A DNA stretch of 64,000 bases from IMG/VR virus record IMGVR_UViG_3300022200_000021. One strand, given 5' to 3'. This document shows, piece by piece, positions 20,270 through 40,730 of this stretch. Under the pieces are notes generated by a model, which saw only the letters and a program-made list of their open reading frames with translations, did not search any database and was not told where the DNA came from. The position numbers and the translations under genes were made by a program. This DNA is from an uncultured virus (IMG/VR IMGVR_UViG_3300022200_000021) (lineage: Duplodnaviria > Heunggongvirae > Uroviricota > Caudoviricetes). Position 1 is the stretch's first letter, and every line of letters starts with the position of its first letter.

Positions 20270-20700
20270 AATTCGTTGACCTGTTATTAGGGATATTGCG
20301 GACGCGGAGTGCGATTCTCCGCCACCTCCACCATAAGCACTATTAAGTGGTAATCGGGAGATAAGGTATCTTCCAGCATAGCAAATTAAAAACCTAAGAC
20401 GAGTATCGTAATGCGTTAGTTAATGAATAGTGCTTACGATGGGGGTGACATAGTTTCGACGTGGTATGTTTGGTAATAGTGAGAATCGGTTAATACGGAA
20501 AACCGTTGTTAATGTATGCTTGAATATTAGTATTCGCGGAATTAACATAAGTCTAATTAGATTAGACAAAGAAGTAATTAATGTAAATGACAATAAAACA
20601 TTTACCCCTGAACTGAAAATTGAAGGATTGTTTTCCGATCTGGAAATGGCTGCTTAATAACCAGCAGGTTCGCGGATTGTAAGTATCCGGTCAACAGAAC
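20270..20700 (+). ncRNA. ssrA: Circularly permuted (two-piece) tmRNA
   Basis: Acceptor piece: T-arm GCGGAG-TGCGATT-CTCCGC, then CACCTCC-A-CCA ending at 20333. Intervening segment 20334-20440. Coding piece starts GGGGGTG at 20441 (7 bp acceptor stem with G3-U70). Tag VNDNKTFTPELKIEGLFSDLEMAA plus two TAA at 20583-20660. Outer boundaries are approximate. Confidence 0.93.
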
Positions 20701-21175: not shown

Positions 21176-21581
21176 AATTAACATTATTTCATACCCTGAT
21201 AACTTATTTAACGAGTCGTTTCAAGTATTATTGTTATACCCTAGTATAGAATTAAAAGAAAATGTACAAGACATTTTACTAAATAAAATTGACAAAAACA
21301 TAAATATTTACTATTATAATAGTTTAGAAAACACAACTGAAGAAATTAACTGGTTATTATCGTCGTTTAACATGTGTGATATAGCTATTATTGATGTAGA
21401 TAACACATCTGGATGTGTGCGAGATTTGCTAAGTTTTTTAATTAGTAAATCGAAAACTTTTTGGTTATCAAAAGCAACAAAAAGTATATATAGTATTATA
21501 AGTAATAATAAAATAATTTCATTAGACATACTAACAAGTATCTTAGGAGGTACGATTGAAGAACAAACGAAGTTACAATAA
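21168..21581 (+). CDS. Hypothetical protein
   Basis: Coupled ORF. Confidence 0.55.
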   Translation: MNKINIISYPDNLFNESFQVLLLYPSIELKENVQDILLNKIDKNINIYYYNSLENTTEEINWLLSSFNMCDIAIIDVDNTSGCVRDLLSFLISKSKTFWLSKATKSIYSIISNNKIISLDILTSILGGTIEEQTKLQ

Positions 21582-21801
21582 AGTAAAAGGTCTTTCTGTA
21601 GAAGTTAGAAATAACGACGTAAACTTTGCATTAAGAAAACTTAAAAAACTAGTACAAAAAGACAGACTTTTACAACTGTTACGTGAACGTGAGTTTTACA
21701 CTAAACCTAGTGTACAACGTAAAAAGGATAAAGCCGCAGGAAGAGTTCGACATTTGAAAAAGATTGAAAAAGATTCAATTAGATCGAAACGGCTTTTTTA
21801 A
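21556..21801 (+). CDS. rpsU: Ribosomal protein bS21
   Basis: VEVRNNDVNFALRKLKK...REFYTKPSVQRK; AGGAGG with TTG start. Confidence 0.9.
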   Translation: MKNKRSYNKVKGLSVEVRNNDVNFALRKLKKLVQKDRLLQLLREREFYTKPSVQRKKDKAAGRVRHLKKIEKDSIRSKRLF

Positions 21802-24491: not shown

Positions 24492-24791
24492 ATGACTACC
24501 GAAGCTGTATTAGATACTAAAACTAAAAAGTCACTTAAAAAACCAAAAAAATATAAAGTTGTGTTTGTGAATGACGACCAAACTCCGTTTGAATGGGTTA
24601 TTAACATTTTAATAAATGTGTTTAAACACTCTGAACAATCTGCAATAAACTTAACTTCAAAAATCCACAACGAAGGCTCAGCTATTGTAGGTGTTTATCA
24701 CTTTGAGATTGCTGAACAAAAAGCATCAGAAGCACAACTGTTAAGTAGATCTCACAGATTTCCATTACAAATTAAATTAGAGGAAGAATGA
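24492..24791 (+). CDS. clpS: N-degron adaptor ClpS
   Basis: YKVVFVNDDQTPFEWV, IHNEGSAIVG, FPL. Confidence 0.93.
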   Translation: MTTEAVLDTKTKKSLKKPKKYKVVFVNDDQTPFEWVINILINVFKHSEQSAINLTSKIHNEGSAIVGVYHFEIAEQKASEAQLLSRSHRFPLQIKLEEE

Positions 24792-25324
24792 TGTCTACAT
24801 TAGCTAAAGCTATTTGGGAATTACACAAAGAAGCAGAAAATCAACTTTTTGTTAAAGATTTGCTTAATAATAATATTAATACTGCCGATTACGTTGTTTT
24901 TTTGCAAAATAGATATCTTATATACAATACTTTAGAATCTTTTATAACACTACATAATTTATTTAAAGATCATACCGAATTATATCGAACTAACTATATA
25001 TCTGAAGACTTATTAGAGCTAAATCCATACGATAAACCTCCTAAAATCTTAACTAGTACTACTGAGTATATTACATACCTATACTCTATCAGCAATAATG
25101 TACATAAACTGTGGTCACATATATATGTTCACTTTATGGGTGATTTAAATGGAGGTCAACTGTTAGCATCTCGCACTCCGGGTAGTGGAAAAATGTATAC
25201 ATTTGACGGGGATGTTGACGCTTTAAAATCATTTATTAAATCTAACTTAGACGACACAATGGCTGACGAAGCTAAAACGTGTTTTAAGTTTATTATTAAT
25301 GTTTTTCGTCAATTGTATGAATAG
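24788..25324 (+). CDS. Heme oxygenase
   Basis: Proximal LHKEAE His; distal HIYVHFMGDLNGGQ. Confidence 0.88.
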   Translation: MMSTLAKAIWELHKEAENQLFVKDLLNNNINTADYVVFLQNRYLIYNTLESFITLHNLFKDHTELYRTNYISEDLLELNPYDKPPKILTSTTEYITYLYSISNNVHKLWSHIYVHFMGDLNGGQLLASRTPGSGKMYTFDGDVDALKSFIKSNLDDTMADEAKTCFKFIINVFRQLYE

Positions 25325-26003
25325 TGAAATATGGGACTTATTAGAAAAATGTGCAGAGTCTGCAGTTACATGCGTTAATACATATGCAACTGAAATCCCT
25401 GTACATACATTACCATTTAATTCTGTTACTTCAATAAATCGAAGTTGGACTAACGATTACATAAGTCGAGCACATCTAAATATTATCGATGCTAGAACTA
25501 CAAAAAAATTATGGATGATGCATTTATGCATTTTTCCAAGTCATACTAATAATAGCCCAATTTTTGGGTTTGATGTTATAGCCGGTGCTAACAAAGTAAC
25601 TGGCTTATTTTTGGATGTTAGTCCAGGGTCTGCCGGAGCTAACCATTTAGTATCTTCTCAATATTATTCTTTAGTAAAAAATACATCTGTTTCTAAAGAA
25701 CGAGTTCTTCCAGAATGGGCAAAGAATATCTTTAGCGATCGTATAATTGCTGCTGGCAACATTCAAAATATTGCAGAAGTATCTCTACTTATTCATTTAA
25801 TGTTAAAAGTGTTAAATCAATACTTAACATCTATTCAGATGTTTAACAACACAGAACTGTCGGAAACTGTAATTAAAAAACATAATTTTTATTGTCATAA
25901 TCAAAAACAAAATCCAAAAACACCTGCAGTATTAAAAAAGTTAGGATTTTCAGACAATGAATTAGAATATTTTTCAGAAAATGTGCTTTTTCCGCAAATT
26001 TAA
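25317..26003 (+). CDS. Ferredoxin-dependent bilin reductase (PcyA/PcyX-like)
   Basis: MMHLCIFP, PIFGFDVI, RVLPEWAKNIFS, YCHNQKQNPKT; likely start 25317. Confidence 0.85.
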   Translation: MNSEIWDLLEKCAESAVTCVNTYATEIPVHTLPFNSVTSINRSWTNDYISRAHLNIIDARTTKKLWMMHLCIFPSHTNNSPIFGFDVIAGANKVTGLFLDVSPGSAGANHLVSSQYYSLVKNTSVSKERVLPEWAKNIFSDRIIAAGNIQNIAEVSLLIHLMLKVLNQYLTSIQMFNNTELSETVIKKHNFYCHNQKQNPKTPAVLKKLGFSDNELEYFSENVLFPQI

Positions 26004-26040
26004 ATGATAAATATTTTCTTTAACTATATTAATTTAATTT

Positions 26041-26289
26041 ATGAAAAGCAATACATGCAAAGAGTGTAACCGAGTTACTATTAAAACAAAATCAATGCCT
26101 GCATTTGTAGGTTACATTTATCTTTCAAAAGATGAACGATTACAAGATCTTTTGAACGATCCGAGACAATTTATACCAATACAAATTATCTCTACAGACT
26201 TAAACAATCCAGACTTATCTGACTCTGCATCATTTAAAACTTTAATTATTCAGAAAACAGAAATAATTTCCATTGAAGATAAAAATTAA
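26041..26289 (+). CDS. Hypothetical protein
   Basis: ERLQDLLNDPRQFIP. Confidence 0.55.
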   Translation: MKSNTCKECNRVTIKTKSMPAFVGYIYLSKDERLQDLLNDPRQFIPIQIISTDLNNPDLSDSASFKTLIIQKTEIISIEDKN

Positions 26290-26301
26290 TTTAAAAAAGT
26301 G

Positions 26302-26330
26302 TTGACAAATCTTTTATTCAGCATTATACT
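26302..26330 (+). promoter_or_regulatory. Sigma70-type promoter
   Basis: TTGACA-17 nt-TATACT with an AT-rich upstream region. Confidence 0.85.
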
Positions 26331-26336
26331 ATACAC

Positions 26337-26940
26337 AATTAAAAAATTACAGGCAATCTTTAAATACAAAATTTAGGCACAAAGTTAGGCAAGTTAGTAC
26401 AGGCAAATCTCAATGGCATCTATCACATCATACTTAGGCATTTAAACAAACAGAATTAAGGTTGGCACGCCGATTGTAATAGTGCTGCGTAATGTCACAT
26501 TATCGAGAGTGTGGTCTATGCGTAATTTGGCTGTCTGTTGTCAGACTATAATACACTATCCTTTACAGGACGATGATTAGGGTAATGCCTAGTTTGTTTA
26601 TAGTATAAAAGTTTTTGACGTTTGATCCCTATGAAATACACAGTCACCTGAAAGTATTTCTTAAAATTCGTAGCGGCATAGGTAAGGTACAGAGCCTAAG
26701 GGAGAGTCACAAAGTCCGCTGACAAACTCATGTGCGAAGCGACTCACAGAAAAATCTTTTTGTCACTCTAGCTTGCTAGGGTGACCTATGGCTAACGATC
26801 TACAGAAAGTATCATAAAAGAAATAATTAAAAAATTATAATTATTCTAAAAAAAATAAAAAATATGAGTTACGTAATGTCTGTTTTGACGAAGTCACAAA
26901 CAAGACATCAGTAACGAAATACGTTGATGAAATCAACGGT
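26337..26940 (+). ncRNA. Candidate large structured ncRNA and/or replication origin
   Basis: About 600 nt without a tracked ORF downstream of a strong promoter; locally GC-richer; AGGCA array and many hairpins. Confidence 0.55.
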
Positions 26941-26979
26941 TAATAGTAATTAAATAATTTTATAATGTAAAGGCTTAAT

Positions 26980-27711
26980 ATGACTAAACAATCAATGCTT
27001 GAAAGCATATGTGAAACAATAGCAATGAGTGAGTCGTATAGTGCTCATGAATTAAACATAGATCCTATAGCTATATGTTTATATTATGGTAGTTTATCTT
27101 ATTCTTATTCTACAATGTATAGTAATCTTGTTGATATTGTATATAAAATTAAAGAAGAACATCCTATTGAAACATTAATAGATTGTGATGCTGTTTGTAG
27201 ATTTAATGATGATGCTCAATGTATTAGAAAATACTTTAAAAATAAGTTAACATTAAAAGCATTAAATGGAGATAATATTTCAGACTACTGGAAAGCTGTA
27301 GCAGAAGTGCTTACTAGTCCTACTAAGATCACTGTTAATTCTATAGGTCTTATTATAAAAATGCCAACATTTTTTAAAGAAGATAATGAATACAAACAAC
27401 TTTCATGTACATATATTTCTGCAGAAGCTTCGGGTAGCTACGAAGTTAATGAAGTATCATTAGATTATGTAAAAACTATAATAAAAAGCCGTAAAAACAA
27501 TAAATGCGATCAATTTATTTTTAAAGATCGAACTAATCGATTATATAAAATTAGCACAGTTGATCATACTGCAACTGTGCTTCTTAACAGTGTAGTGAAT
27601 CGTACTATTACATTTCATAATGCAACAGTGTATCCATTACGATTATCTGATGTGTCAGATTTTCTCATATTGGAAATTATGAATTTTGAAAAAATTTCAA
27701 TTAAGGATTAA
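26980..27711 (+). CDS. Hypothetical protein
   Basis: 243 aa ORF. Confidence 0.6.
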   Translation: MTKQSMLESICETIAMSESYSAHELNIDPIAICLYYGSLSYSYSTMYSNLVDIVYKIKEEHPIETLIDCDAVCRFNDDAQCIRKYFKNKLTLKALNGDNISDYWKAVAEVLTSPTKITVNSIGLIIKMPTFFKEDNEYKQLSCTYISAEASGSYEVNEVSLDYVKTIIKSRKNNKCDQFIFKDRTNRLYKISTVDHTATVLLNSVVNRTITFHNATVYPLRLSDVSDFLILEIMNFEKISIKD

Positions 27712-27940: not shown

Positions 27941-28162
27941 ATGGCAACACAAAAAGATTTAATAGAAGTAATTGGAACAATTACAGATATCTTACCTAAC
28001 CAAATGTTTAAAGTTAAATTAGATGATCAAGATCATACCGTAATATGTTATTCTAGTGGTAAAATGAGGAAATTTAACATTAGAATAGTACTCGGCGACA
28101 AGGTAAAGCTTGAAATATCCCCATATGATTTATCAAAAGGACGTATTAGTTTACGTTTATAG
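27941..28162 (+). CDS. infA: Translation initiation factor IF-1
   Basis: LPNQMFKVKL, SGKMRKFNIRIVLGDKV, SPYDLSKGRI. Confidence 0.96.
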   Translation: MATQKDLIEVIGTITDILPNQMFKVKLDDQDHTVICYSSGKMRKFNIRIVLGDKVKLEISPYDLSKGRISLRL

Positions 28163-29484: not shown

Positions 29485-30078
29485 ATGACTAATCTAGTAC
29501 CAATGGTAATCGAGCAAAGTCCACGTGGCGAACGTGCTATGGATATTTACAGTCGATTATTAAAAGATCGTATTGTAATGTTATGTAGCGAAGTTAATGA
29601 TCATGTTGCTAACTCTATTGTATCCCAATTGTTATTCTTAGAATCAGAAAATTCTGAAAAAGATATTTACTTGTATATTAATTCACCTGGTGGTGTAATT
29701 ACTTCAGGATTAAGCATTTATGACACTATGCAATTTATTAAACCAGATGTTCAAACTATTGTAATGGGTCAAGCATGTTCAATGGGCTCTTTTTTAGCGC
29801 AGGCAGGAGCACCGGGTAAACGTAAAATGCTACCTAATGCAAGACATTTAATTCATCAACCATTAGGAGGGGCACAAGGACAAGCAAGCGATATTGAAAT
29901 ACATGCTAAAGAAATTGTTAGAATGAAGAAAACATTAACAGAACTATATGTTAAGCATAATTCAAAAGGCAAAACATTTGATGAATTAGAACATGATATG
30001 AATCGTGATAATATTATGACTGCTGAACAAAGTTTAGAATATGGTTTAGTAGACGAAATTGTTATTAATAGAGGTTAA
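29485..30078 (+). CDS. clpP: Clp protease proteolytic subunit
   Basis: [22 protein letters not shown] (Ser), IHQPLGG (His), RDNIM (Asp). Confidence 0.98.
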
Positions 30079-39891: not shown

Positions 39892-40730
39892 TTATGTTCT
39901 AACCAATTAACTAATTTTTCGTACAATTTTTTGTTAAATATTTTCCAAACAGCAGTACGGTTACGATCATCTTTAATATTTGAAAACTTTTTCTTGTATG
40001 TATGATAGCTATCACTAGGGATTATTTTTTTACCAAATAGGCTGTCTAAACCATGTTTCACAGCAGTTAATTGATTTTGAACAGTTTGATAAGGATCGTC
40101 AAACTGTTTTGCATGTAAAATGATATCAGAAGCAACAGATTGTGCAAATGCATCAATTTCATATCTTAATGCTAAGTAGTTAGTGTCGTTGTCAGAATTT
40201 TTTAGATTACTAGGTTTAGCAGTTATTTGGTGGTCTTTGTTTTTAGTTCGAGCTAATTGAATCAAATGAGTTAGTTCGTGTGAAATTACTGATATTAATT
40301 CATCACGGGTAGTATTCTTGTTAACTTTTTGTGGAACCTCGAGATATAGCTCACATACTAGAAAGTAGTCTAAACTGTGCGGTGATTTGCTCAATTTGAA
40401 AGGTTTTTTTGAAAACCACCCAGAAACTGAAACATCGTCTGCAAATGTATTAGTATTAATAACTAGTCGTAACTTATGACCTAAATAGTGTTGATCTTTT
40501 ATGAAATTTAAATTATCTTTTAATACTTTGTTAATAGTAGGATGAAGGGTTTTGCGTAGGATTTCAAGTTTCCCTTTTTCTTCTTTAATTCGATCTCGCC
40601 GATCGTACTGAACACTTAATTGACCATTACTAACTATATTAAACCATTTGTCTACTGCTCGTTCGATTTTAGAAAAAATTTCATTACTTAATATAATTTT
40701 TTCTATTAATAGTTGTTTTAGTGATAACAT
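39888..40730 (-). CDS. HExxH metallopeptidase-like protein, paralog family
   Basis: SHELTHLIQ...YLALRYEIDAFAQ; minus-strand GGAG RBS and late motif. Confidence 0.7.
   Translation of the reverse strand: MLSLKQLLIEKIILSNEIFSKIERAVDKWFNIVSNGQLSVQYDRRDRIKEEKGKLEILRKTLHPTINKVLKDNLNFIKDQHYLGHKLRLVINTNTFADDVSVSGWFSKKPFKLSKSPHSLDYFLVCELYLEVPQKVNKNTTRDELISVISHELTHLIQLARTKNKDHQITAKPSNLKNSDNDTNYLALRYEIDAFAQSVASDIILHAKQFDDPYQTVQNQLTAVKHGLDSLFGKKIIPSDSYHTYKKKFSNIKDDRNRTAVWKIFNKKLYEKLVNWLEHN

What the first reader, a model, noticed from the sequence alone, without database searches (positions are those of the whole stretch)
26337..26815. Candidate undescribed large structured ncRNA behind a consensus sigma70 promoter
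Seen: this is the longest ORF-free stretch in the window, with TTGACA-17-TATACT directly upstream and raised GC. Helices include CACATT/AGTGTG, GTCTG-TTGT-CAGAC, TCCT-TTAC-AGGA, GAAATAC/GTATTTC enclosing CAG-TCAC-CTG, AGCGG/CCGCT, GAGTC/GACTC, and GTCACTCTAG-CTTG-CTAGGGTGAC (CUUG tetraloop, G-U pair), the last flanked by two ACAGAAA repeats. TAGGCATT+TAAACAAAC (26435-26451) is complementary to AATGCCTA+GTTTGTTTA (26584-26600) in crossed order, implying a pseudoknot, a switch or intermolecular pairing. I recognise no named RNA family.
Basis: partly seen in the sequence, partly recalled or inferred. Interest (0 to 1): 0.8.

Follow-up and report, generated by a model that had tools for sequence, protein, structure and literature searches.

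The report
Diverged Polynucleobacter-1-type phage RNA gene
The gene-free gap holds a promoter-driven gene for a large folded RNA that is a very diverged relative of a catalogued but unexplained RNA family of freshwater phages, and it carries that family's odd hallmark: two identical short sequences on either side of a hairpin.

Summary
The central 145 nt (26460-26604) is a weak match to Rfam Polynucleobacter-1 (RF01718: 22 bits, cut-off 37). It shares an exact 23-nt core with 19 of 19 diverged viral loci that score above that cut-off.

The family RNA is about 400 nt, far longer than the 141-position Rfam model. I mapped an uncatalogued 3' half with a covarying pseudoknot (46 pairs, 96% paired against 80% in shuffles).

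I also found an unexplained rule. Two direct repeats, ACUC+7-mer and AUCU+the same 7-mer, flank a hairpin.
- The 7-mer differs between genomes but matches within each: 59 of 61 distinct sequences exactly, and one bacterial copy.
- The window obeys the rule at 26742/26798. This is the only such pair in 64 kb.

Results against the reading:
- The window RNA folds no better than shuffles (z about 0).
- A model of the 3' module does not detect it (3.9 bits).

Function is unknown. Most likely it is a stand-alone trans-acting RNA with paired binding sites. This scan has met relatives of this RNA on other DNA before.

The parts
26302..26330 (+). Sigma70-type promoter, TTGACA-17 nt-TATACT. The predicted start is near 26337.
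   Evidence: 11 of 12 consensus positions, the best site in 25800-27200. That it is used, and the start point, are inferred.
26348..26440 (+). 5' leader with six GGCA motifs (26352, 26376, 26388, 26402, 26415, 26437). Three occur as AAnnTTAGGCA and two as TACAGGCAA.
   Evidence: It is the only 110-nt stretch of the window with 5 or more GGCA. Leaders of diverged relatives (L005, L187, L009/L013) also carry repeated TAGGCA. The role is unknown.
26460..26604 (+). 5' domain, a diverged Polynucleobacter-1 (RF01718) element. It comprises:
- P1: 26465-69 / 26481-85.
- P2-position hairpin: 26496-501 / 26508-13.
- P3: 26533-37 / 26542-46.
- P4: 26546-51 / 26598-603.
- Core hairpin: 26559-61 / 26568-70.
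- P5: 26576-81 / 26588-93.
- 23-nt core: 26554-26576.
   Evidence: -: full-length alignment to the 141-position model, 22.2 bits, E 0.014 over 801 nt.
- family sequence profile, E 2e-8.
- the core is shared.
- the family helices covary.
26605..26740 (+). Middle region.
- Long hairpin: GAAATAC 26633-39 / GTATTTC 26654-60, enclosing CAG/CTG.
- Two crossing helices: AGCGG 26672-76 / CCGCT 26716-20 and GAGTC 26704-08 / GACTC 26741-45.
- These have the same topology as the family's pseudoknot.
   Evidence: The helices are read from the sequence and appear in part in the energy fold. The region cannot be aligned to the family (no hit with the 3' profile). The equivalence to the family hairpin, pseudoknot and helix is inferred from order and topology only.
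26741..26808 (+). Twin-repeat module.
- Repeat 1: GACTCACAGAAA, 26741-52.
- Hairpin: GTCACTCTAG-CTTG-CTAGGGTGAC, 26762-85.
- Repeat 2: GATCTACAGAAA, 26797-808.
   Evidence: -: the only ACTC+7-mer ... ATCT+same 7-mer pair on either strand of the window; 3 of 200 shuffles have one.
- The rule holds in 59 of 61 distinct relatives.
- my covariance model aligns the module in the expected register, but at only 3.9 bits.
26866..26938 (+). Two further hairpins (GTTAC 26868-72 / GTAAC 26911-15, and CGTTGAT 26922-28 / ATCAACG 26932-38) behind an A+T-rich spacer (26815-26865). They may form the 3' end of the RNA.
   Evidence: Relatives also end with two hairpins after an A+T-rich spacer (columns 455-590), but theirs differ in sequence. 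The + strand has no T-run terminator. The 3' end is not determined.

Best explanation
The gap encodes a stand-alone non-coding RNA of roughly 470 to 600 nt (26337 to about 26810, perhaps to 26940). It is a strongly diverged homologue of the large RNA whose 5' domain Rfam lists as Polynucleobacter-1.

Shown:
- The homologous core and the order of helices.
- Family-wide covariation for the 5' domain and for an uncatalogued 3' half: a long hairpin, a pseudoknot and a two-part helix.
- A 3' module in which two direct repeats (x-ACUC-N7 and x-AUCU-same N7) flank a hairpin. N7 differs between genomes but is the same in both repeats of one genome.

Inferred:
- Host RNA polymerase transcribes it early from the consensus promoter.
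- The folded 5' and middle domains act as a scaffold.
- The RNA acts in trans. It presents the two identical single-stranded 11- to 12-mers to two copies of one genome-specific partner (an RNA by base pairing, or a protein).
- The GGCA leader repeats may form a second multivalent site.
- It is not a leader that controls the next gene.
For: Homology of the 5' domain:
- RF01718 aligns over all 141 positions at 26460-26604.
- The exact 23-mer core occurs in 20 viral contigs. The 19 that are not identical to the window all score 39.6-79 bits.
- A profile of the family made without the window hits 26549-26591 with E 2e-8 over 64 kb.

A real structured RNA family:
- On 56 sequences, my 46-pair structure is 96.3% paired against 80.4% in shuffles (0 of 500 reach it).
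- 31 pairs change on both sides.
- The covariation score is 0.477 against at most 0.078 when partners are slid.
- The pseudoknot pairs read CG:32/UA:24 and AU:33/GC:22.

Twin repeats:
- The 7-mer is identical in 55 of 56 aligned rows.
- The rule is exact in 59 of 61 distinct sequences.
- It holds at up to one mismatch in 70 of 75 evaluable viral loci.
- It holds in a bacterial chromosome copy that scores 81.6 bits.
- It holds in the window.
- The 7-mer changes at least 14 times on a tree built without the repeats, in both repeats together.

Independent gene, not a leader:
- In 6 of 21 representative loci the next gene converges on the RNA.
- Flanking genes differ between the window (DUF6812 and an orphan ORF) and most relatives.
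- In most relatives the order is late sigma factor, SbcD-like, SbcC-like, segE-type GIY-YIG, RNA.
- The window copy has its own near-consensus promoter.
Against: - The window copy is below Rfam's curated score and does not appear at E <= 1 when the whole window is searched.
- Its folding energy equals that of shuffles, whereas a typical relative gives z -1.93.
- The 3' half is not detected by a sequence profile.
- It is also not detected by my covariance model of the twin module: not listed over 64 kb, and 3.9 bits, E 2.7 over 701 nt.
- No partner complementary to the repeats was found:
  - none in the aligned RNA;
  - none within 700 nt on either side in relatives;
  - none in the 64-kb window.
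- I have no transcript data, so the start, the end and even expression are inferred.
- All relatives were fished with the exact core. The core's invariance is therefore by construction, and members with other cores were not sampled.
- The count of independent repeat changes could be inflated if a linked 60-nt block recombines between phages.
- In the window the RNA and ORF 26980 lie on one strand with no clear terminator between them, so a long leader is not excluded for this genome.
Confidence: 0.6

Rival explanations
1. Cis-regulatory leader. The promoter at 26302-26330 drives one long mRNA, and the folded RNA is a 640-nt 5' untranslated region (riboswitch-like or protein-binding) that controls ORF 26980-27711.
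For: - Weinberg et al. 2010 marked the motif as probably cis-regulatory ('y', table passage seen).
- The RNA and ORF 26980 share a strand, with no T-run terminator between them on the + strand and only a weak promoter-like site (9 of 12) at 26799-26827.
- In the bacterial copy an ORF starts about 40 nt after the last hairpin.
Against: - Downstream genes are not conserved. In 6 of 21 representative loci the neighbour converges on the RNA.
- In 63 of 80 viral loci the nearest conserved downstream gene (baseplate hub) is on the other strand.
- Several downstream + strand genes have a TATAAATA-like box of their own (by eye; the T4 late-promoter consensus is recalled).
- ORF 26980-27711 has no relative beside any other family member (one search found only the identical contig).
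Confidence: 0.13
2. A decaying or relic copy. The window holds a degenerate paralogue of the family RNA that no longer folds or functions.
For: - 22.2 bits against 39.6-81.6 for the others.
- At most 48% identity to any relative.
- No excess folding stability.
- The middle region cannot be aligned.
- It lies outside the usual slot after the SbcC-like gene.
Against: - The 23-nt core is intact.
- P1, P3, P4, P5 and the core hairpin still pair, with 2 non-standard pairs marked.
- The twin repeats are identical at 7 of 7 positions plus the flanking base.
- The promoter matches 11 of 12 positions.
- Drift would be expected to break the repeat identity first.
Confidence: 0.1
3. DNA-level element. 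The promoter, the GGCA iteron-like repeats and the very A+T-rich stretch at 26815-26865 form a replication origin or protein-binding control region. In this reading the transcript serves as an origin RNA (R-loop primer), as at T4 oriF/oriG (recalled).
For: - Six GGCA motifs lie about 12-24 nt apart.
- The order is promoter, then transcript, then an A+T-rich block.
- Most relatives sit next to recombination/replication genes.
Against: - Compensatory base-pair changes and strand-specific motifs point to selection on the RNA fold, which a mere R-loop does not need.
- TAGGCA is not enriched in the window overall (13 sites against 21.5 expected).
Confidence: 0.05

Closest known systems
Polynucleobacter-1 RNA motif (Rfam RF01718; Weinberg et al. 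2010, Genome Biol 11:R31, PMC2864571)
   Same: - Same order of helices (P1 to P5 around a conserved junction).
- Same 23-nt core, CACUAUCC-UUUACA-GGACGAUGA.
- Freshwater phage and mobile-island setting.
- Function unknown in both.
   Different: - The window copy scores 22.2 bits, under the curated 37.
- The real RNA is about three times longer than the 141-position model.
- Not in the model are a leader with GGCA motifs, a hairpin/pseudoknot/helix domain, and the twin-repeat module.
- I found nothing on these parts in the paper's main text or in the held supplements that name the motif. What I saw was a table row, the seed alignment and the drawing text.
GOLLD and ROOL, large ornate RNAs often carried by phages (recalled; cryo-EM preprint 10.1101/2024.12.08.627333 seen only as a listing and abstract)
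   Same: Large, intricately folded, phage-borne RNAs with no known job. Self-association through loops has been shown for those RNAs, and the GGCA leader / UGCC loop pair here could in principle do the same.
   Different: - No Rfam match to either.
- This RNA is smaller (about 0.4-0.6 kb).
- It has different motifs.
- Nothing here shows multimerisation.
Multi-site decoy or sponge RNAs and sibling small RNAs with identical seeds (CsrB/RsmZ, Qrr, OmrA/B; recalled)
   Same: The same short single-stranded sequence is presented more than once beside hairpins. This is how those RNAs bind several copies of one partner.
   Different: - The motifs are not GGA-type.
- No partner is known.
- There are only two copies, each with a fixed but different 4-mer (ACUC or AUCU) in front.
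- This is a resemblance in design only, not membership.
Direct 'R'-type repeats used for strand transfer or template jumping by reverse transcriptases (retroviral R; DRT2 defence RNA; recalled)
   Same: Two direct repeats bracket a structured segment and must stay identical to each other. This is the pattern of change seen here.
   Different: - No reverse transcriptase lies within 5 kb in 80 viral loci (clusters; the Pfam and PHROG names of 10 of them are).
- The bracketed unit has stop codons in all frames by eye.
- The idea is untested.

Membership tests
Polynucleobacter-1 RNA (Rfam RF01718) | Covariance-model score at or above the curated gathering score (37 bits). | tested here: not met
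   - 22.2 bits, E 0.014 over 801 nt.
- Not listed at gathering.
- Not listed at E <= 1 over the whole window.
- Relatives score 39.6-81.6 bits.
Polynucleobacter-1 RNA (Rfam RF01718) | Conserved junction sequence around the small hairpin (consensus CACUAuCC-loop-GGAcGa). | tested here: met
   26554-26576 is identical over 23 nt to 19 of 19 diverged loci that pass the Rfam score. A family profile built without the window gives E 2e-8.
Polynucleobacter-1 RNA (Rfam RF01718) | Helices P1, P2, P3, P4 (enclosing), core hairpin and P5, in that order. | tested here: inconclusive
   P1, P3, P4, the core hairpin and P5 are aligned, with 2 non-standard pairs marked. The P2 part of the model falls in a 25-nt insertion. 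A hairpin (26496-26513) stands at that place but was not scored.
Extended family as defined here (RF01718 domain plus 3' half) | Twin direct repeats, x-ACUC-N7 and x-AUCU-same N7, 35-85 nt apart, flanking a hairpin about 190-250 nt after the core. | tested here: met
   - window 26742 / 26798, N7 = ACAGAAA, the only such pair in 64 kb; 3 of 200 shuffles have one.
- 59 of 61 distinct relatives are exact.
- Bacterial copy.
Extended family as defined here (RF01718 domain plus 3' half) | Middle domain: long hairpin, then a pseudoknot (CCGUyrU with AryACGG in a helix loop). | tested here: inconclusive
   - The family is strongly supported.
- The window has two crossing helices of the same topology (26672-76 / 26716-20 and 26704-08 / 26741-45).
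- It has no detectable sequence likeness.
Riboswitch or other cis-regulatory leader | Constant position upstream of one kind of gene, with an expression platform. | tested here: not met
   - Downstream genes differ.
- They converge on the RNA in 6 of 21 representatives.
- The conserved downstream gene in 63 of 80 loci is on the other strand.
Any other Rfam family (tmRNA, RNase P, group I intron, 6S, GOLLD, ROOL and the rest of 4227 models) | A match at permissive threshold. | tested here: not met
   at E <= 10 over 26200-27000, RF01718 is the only match; 19 relatives show nothing else in the RNA except a weak manA-like match in one locus (18.9 bits, cut-off 55.2).

The most novel reading that the evidence does not exclude
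The twin repeats are a programmable address. The RNA's two identical 11- to 12-mers are read by base pairing, each phage or island setting its own 7-mer. One possibility is that they are twin guides or seeds for a genome-specific nucleic-acid partner. Another is that they are strand-transfer repeats that let a polymerase jump from one to the other and copy the bracketed hairpin unit repeatedly. Either reading would make this orphan family a new kind of RNA-guided or RNA-templated device of T4-like phages and Polynucleobacter islands.
Probability: 0.12. Interest if true: 0.85.

Novelty: new variant of a known kind. Interest (0 to 1): 0.55.

Why it matters
Polynucleobacter-1 has been an orphan motif since 2010. 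Three results here bear on it.
- The catalogued 141 positions are only the front third of a roughly 400-nt RNA.
- That RNA is common in uncultured T4-like freshwater phages: 108 viral contigs and 69 metagenome contigs carry the exact core.
- In most of them it sits in a fixed slot after the SbcD/SbcC-like recombination nuclease genes and a segE-type homing endonuclease.

The window copy shows how far the family can diverge and still keep its core and its twin repeats, so searches with the Rfam model under-count it. The twin-repeat rule, two sequences that must stay identical rather than complementary, is unusual for a structured RNA. It gives a concrete handle for experiments: find what reads the 7-mer.

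If the RNA proves to be a decoy, guide or template, it would add a new class of phage-host RNA device. If not, it remains a well-mapped orphan.

Tried and rejected
- Expression data: no RNA holder was listed for 26290-26990, so read mapping was not run.
- GenBank phages: no match to 26290-26860 by sensitive blastn.
- Genome collection scan with a 14-base degenerate core: 120 loci, none matched the family profile.
- Relatives through the downstream protein: only the identical contig.
- Rfam model on the nearest virus record G001: no match at E <= 1. Four metagenome records were not held and so were not searched.
- Leader pairing with the P5 loop (UAGGCA with UGCCUA): when the loop changes (for example to CGCCG) the leader does not compensate (by eye). 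Only GGC/GCC is constant, so this was not adopted.
- A helix joining the flanks of the two repeats (UGUUC with GAACA): it pairs in many rows but fails in a whole subgroup, so it was dropped from the structure.
- Translated readings of the repeats (a codon followed by UAA or UGA; a 16-codon mini-ORF from the AUG in repeat 1 of L003): neither is kept in L006, nor in the window, L005 or L160 (by eye). Rejected.
- Extra copies of the 7-mer: none are consistent in phage copies. The bacterial copy has four.
- tRNA neighbourhood: no tRNA gene in the window or in 43 of 43 viral loci scanned out to 5 kb on each side.
- RNAalifold on the raw MAFFT alignment paired P1's flank with the 3' hairpin. I took this as an artefact of a shifted hairpin alignment and left it out of the structure.
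- RNase P, T-box, hammerhead and anticodon-loop resemblances were considered from memory. None fits the conserved positions, and no Rfam model matched.

Full report
**The observation.**
- The gap 26290-26979 (690 nt) is the longest ORF-free stretch of the window at cut-offs of 40 to 80 codons. Only four ORFs of 31-35 codons with GTG or TTG starts lie in it.
- G+C is 0.38 in 26337-26815 against 0.315 overall.
- TTGACA-17-TATACT at 26302-26330 matches 11 of 12 consensus positions, although the number of promoter-like sites in the region is as in shuffles.

By itself the sequence does not stand out as a fold.
- Minimum free energy is -105.7 kcal/mol against -106.6 +/- 5.2 for shuffles (z +0.17). 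For 26454-26830, z is -0.17.
- Exact inverted repeats of 8 or 9 nt are as frequent in shuffles.

**What the centre is.**
- Rfam at curated thresholds finds only a permuted tmRNA at 20270-20657.
- At a permissive threshold on 26200-27000, the single match is Polynucleobacter-1 (RF01718). It covers all 141 positions at 26460-26604, with 22.2 bits against a cut-off of 37 and E 0.014.
- Over the whole window it does not reach E <= 1.
- The 23-mer at 26554-26576 occurs exactly in 20 viral contigs. One is identical to the window. The other 19 can be aligned to it by blastn only over 24-55 nt around the core, yet 19 of 19 score 39.6-79 bits on RF01718.
- A sequence profile of the family built without the window finds 26549-26591 with E 2e-8 in 64 kb.

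So the centre is a very diverged homologue of a catalogued motif. By Rfam's own operational test it is not a member.

**The family is larger than its catalogue entry.**
- A metagenome scan with the 20-mer gave 69 more loci. Together with the viral loci these make 61 distinct sequences in 22 clusters at 75% identity. The window is the outlier, with at most 48% identity to any other.
- Alignment of 56 of them shows conservation from about 100 nt before the core to about 330 nt after it. I left out the window, L005, L160, L176 and L187 as too diverged.
- I wrote a 46-pair structure. P1, P3, P4, the core hairpin and P5 belong to the Rfam part. The long hairpin, the pseudoknot between CCGUyrU and the loop AryACGG, and a two-part helix lie beyond it.
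- On that structure 96.3% of cells pair against 80.4% in shuffles (0 of 500). Thirty-one pairs change on both sides. The covariation score is 0.477 against at most 0.078 with slid partners.
- The relatives were all retrieved through the exact core, so the core's invariance in this set is by construction.

**The twin repeats.**
- In the 3' module two direct repeats flank a hairpin: x-ACUC-N7 and, 56-74 nt later, x-AUCU-N7.
- The trinucleotides CUC and UCU always differ. The 7-mer and the base in front vary between genomes but agree within a genome.
- The 7-mer is identical in 55 of 56 aligned rows.
- Among the 61 distinct sequences, 59 are exact, 1 has one mismatch and 1 has none.
- A wider fetch returned 80 of 108 viral contigs, overlapping the first set. 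Of 75 evaluable loci, 70 obey the rule at up to one mismatch. Three more have UUCU in place of AUCU with an identical 7-mer. One has a different 8-nt twin. One has a deletion that removes the first repeat.
- On a tree built without the repeat columns the 7-mer changes at least 15 and 14 times in the two repeats, together except in one row. Recombination of the linked block could inflate that count, but each distinct 7-mer seen still needs a joint change.
- One of 401 sampled genomes of a bacterial order carries the core. That copy scores 81.6 bits, lies near a gene with a weak phage-integrase match, and obeys the rule with AGCGAAA.
- I found no complementary partner. None is in the aligned RNA, none within 700 nt on either side, and none in the window for its own repeat.

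**The window's 3' half.**
- Neither the sequence profile nor my covariance model of the module detects it. The model did not list it over 64 kb. It gave 3.9 bits, E 2.7 over 701 nt, in the right register. It finds L176 at 41 bits and L005 at 16 bits.
- Yet the window has GACTCACAGAAA at 26741 and GATCTACAGAAA at 26797 around the CUUG hairpin. This is the only pair obeying the rule on either strand of 64 kb, and only 3 of 200 shuffles of the window contain any.
That equivalence is inferred only.

**The leader.**
- Six GGCA motifs lie in 26352-26440. This is the only place in the window with five or more per 110 nt.
- TAGGCA is not a genome-wide motif.
- Diverged relatives also have repeated TAGGCA before P1.
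- The P5 loop of many members reads AUAUGCCUA.
However, when the loop changes the leader does not compensate, and leader-to-target duplex energies are not enriched across the family.

**Setting.**
- The window is part of a large uncultured phage. The nearest record is 90 kb and estimated 25% complete.
- Pfam names ClpS, Hsp20, heme oxygenase, a bilin reductase, ribosomal protein S21, IF-1 and a nuclease nearby. GroES/GroEL, ClpP and thymidylate synthase are read by eye.
- The RNA's neighbours here are a DUF6812 protein and an orphan ORF.
- In most relatives the RNA follows a late sigma factor, SbcD-like and SbcC-like nuclease genes and a segE-type GIY-YIG endonuclease. A baseplate hub gene lies on the other strand downstream.
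- No tRNA genes are near.
- In 6 of 21 representative loci the next gene converges on the RNA. This argues against a leader role.

**What is in print.**
- The only paper in the library that names the motif is Weinberg et al. 2010 (search).
- I saw its table passage: RNA 'y', cis-regulatory 'y', switch '?', Burkholderiales and fresh water or estuary. I also saw the seed alignment and drawing text in the supplements.
- A second search for structured phage RNAs found nothing on this family (listings only).
- Earlier notes of this scan describe relatives in other phages and a Polynucleobacter island as large orphan RNAs. My results agree. I did not retest theirs except for finding a bacterial copy of my own.

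**Verdict.** This is a real, very diverged copy of a partly catalogued orphan RNA. It is most likely a stand-alone trans-acting RNA. The function is unknown, and the twin-repeat identity rule is the best lead.

Noticed in passing
window 20270-20657 (+): A permuted (two-piece) tmRNA gene: RF04321 at 73.7 bits, with weaker alpha-proteobacterial tmRNA matches. ARAGORN did not call it.
   Followed up: partly
window 21556-21801, 27941-28162, 24492-24791, 29485-30078: The phage encodes translation and proteostasis parts: ribosomal protein S21, initiation factor IF-1 and ClpS by Pfam, and a ClpP-like protease and GroES/GroEL by eye.
   Followed up: partly
window 24788-26289: Heme oxygenase, a ferredoxin-dependent bilin reductase and a DUF6812 protein stand in a row just upstream of the RNA promoter, a pigment-type auxiliary cluster.
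   Followed up: no
L003:721-1164 (-) and 70 of 80 viral loci: A segE-type GIY-YIG endonuclease gene (PF19835, E 1.5e-32) ends about 100 nt before the RNA core, and its last codons overlap the RNA leader. The RNA gene or its invariant core may be its homing target.
   Followed up: partly
relatives, A1 columns 525-555; L212 at core +340 to +365: A hairpin with the conserved inner sequence GAGCG-AnA-GCGAA (tandem G-A next to a GNRA-closed mini-helix) follows the RNA in phage and bacterial copies. The window has other hairpins at that place.
   Followed up: no
L241 (viral contig locus), core +100 to +160: A natural deletion variant lacks the pseudoknot, the helix, repeat 1 and half of the hairpin, keeping only repeat 2.
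   Followed up: no
L212 (bacterial genome G052), core +194 to +357: The 7-mer of the twin repeats (AGCGAAA) occurs four times on the RNA strand within 160 nt, with no complement in 3 kb.
   Followed up: partly
window 40397-40440 (+): A hairpin gives a sub-threshold match to the histone 3' stem-loop model (27.5 bits, cut-off 34). It is probably just a stable hairpin.
   Followed up: no
window 26304-26320 and 26749-26765: A 17-nt direct repeat at 82% identity (GACAAATCTTTTATTCA / GAAAAATCTTTTTGTCA) links the promoter spacer with the stretch after repeat 1. Possibly chance.
   Followed up: no
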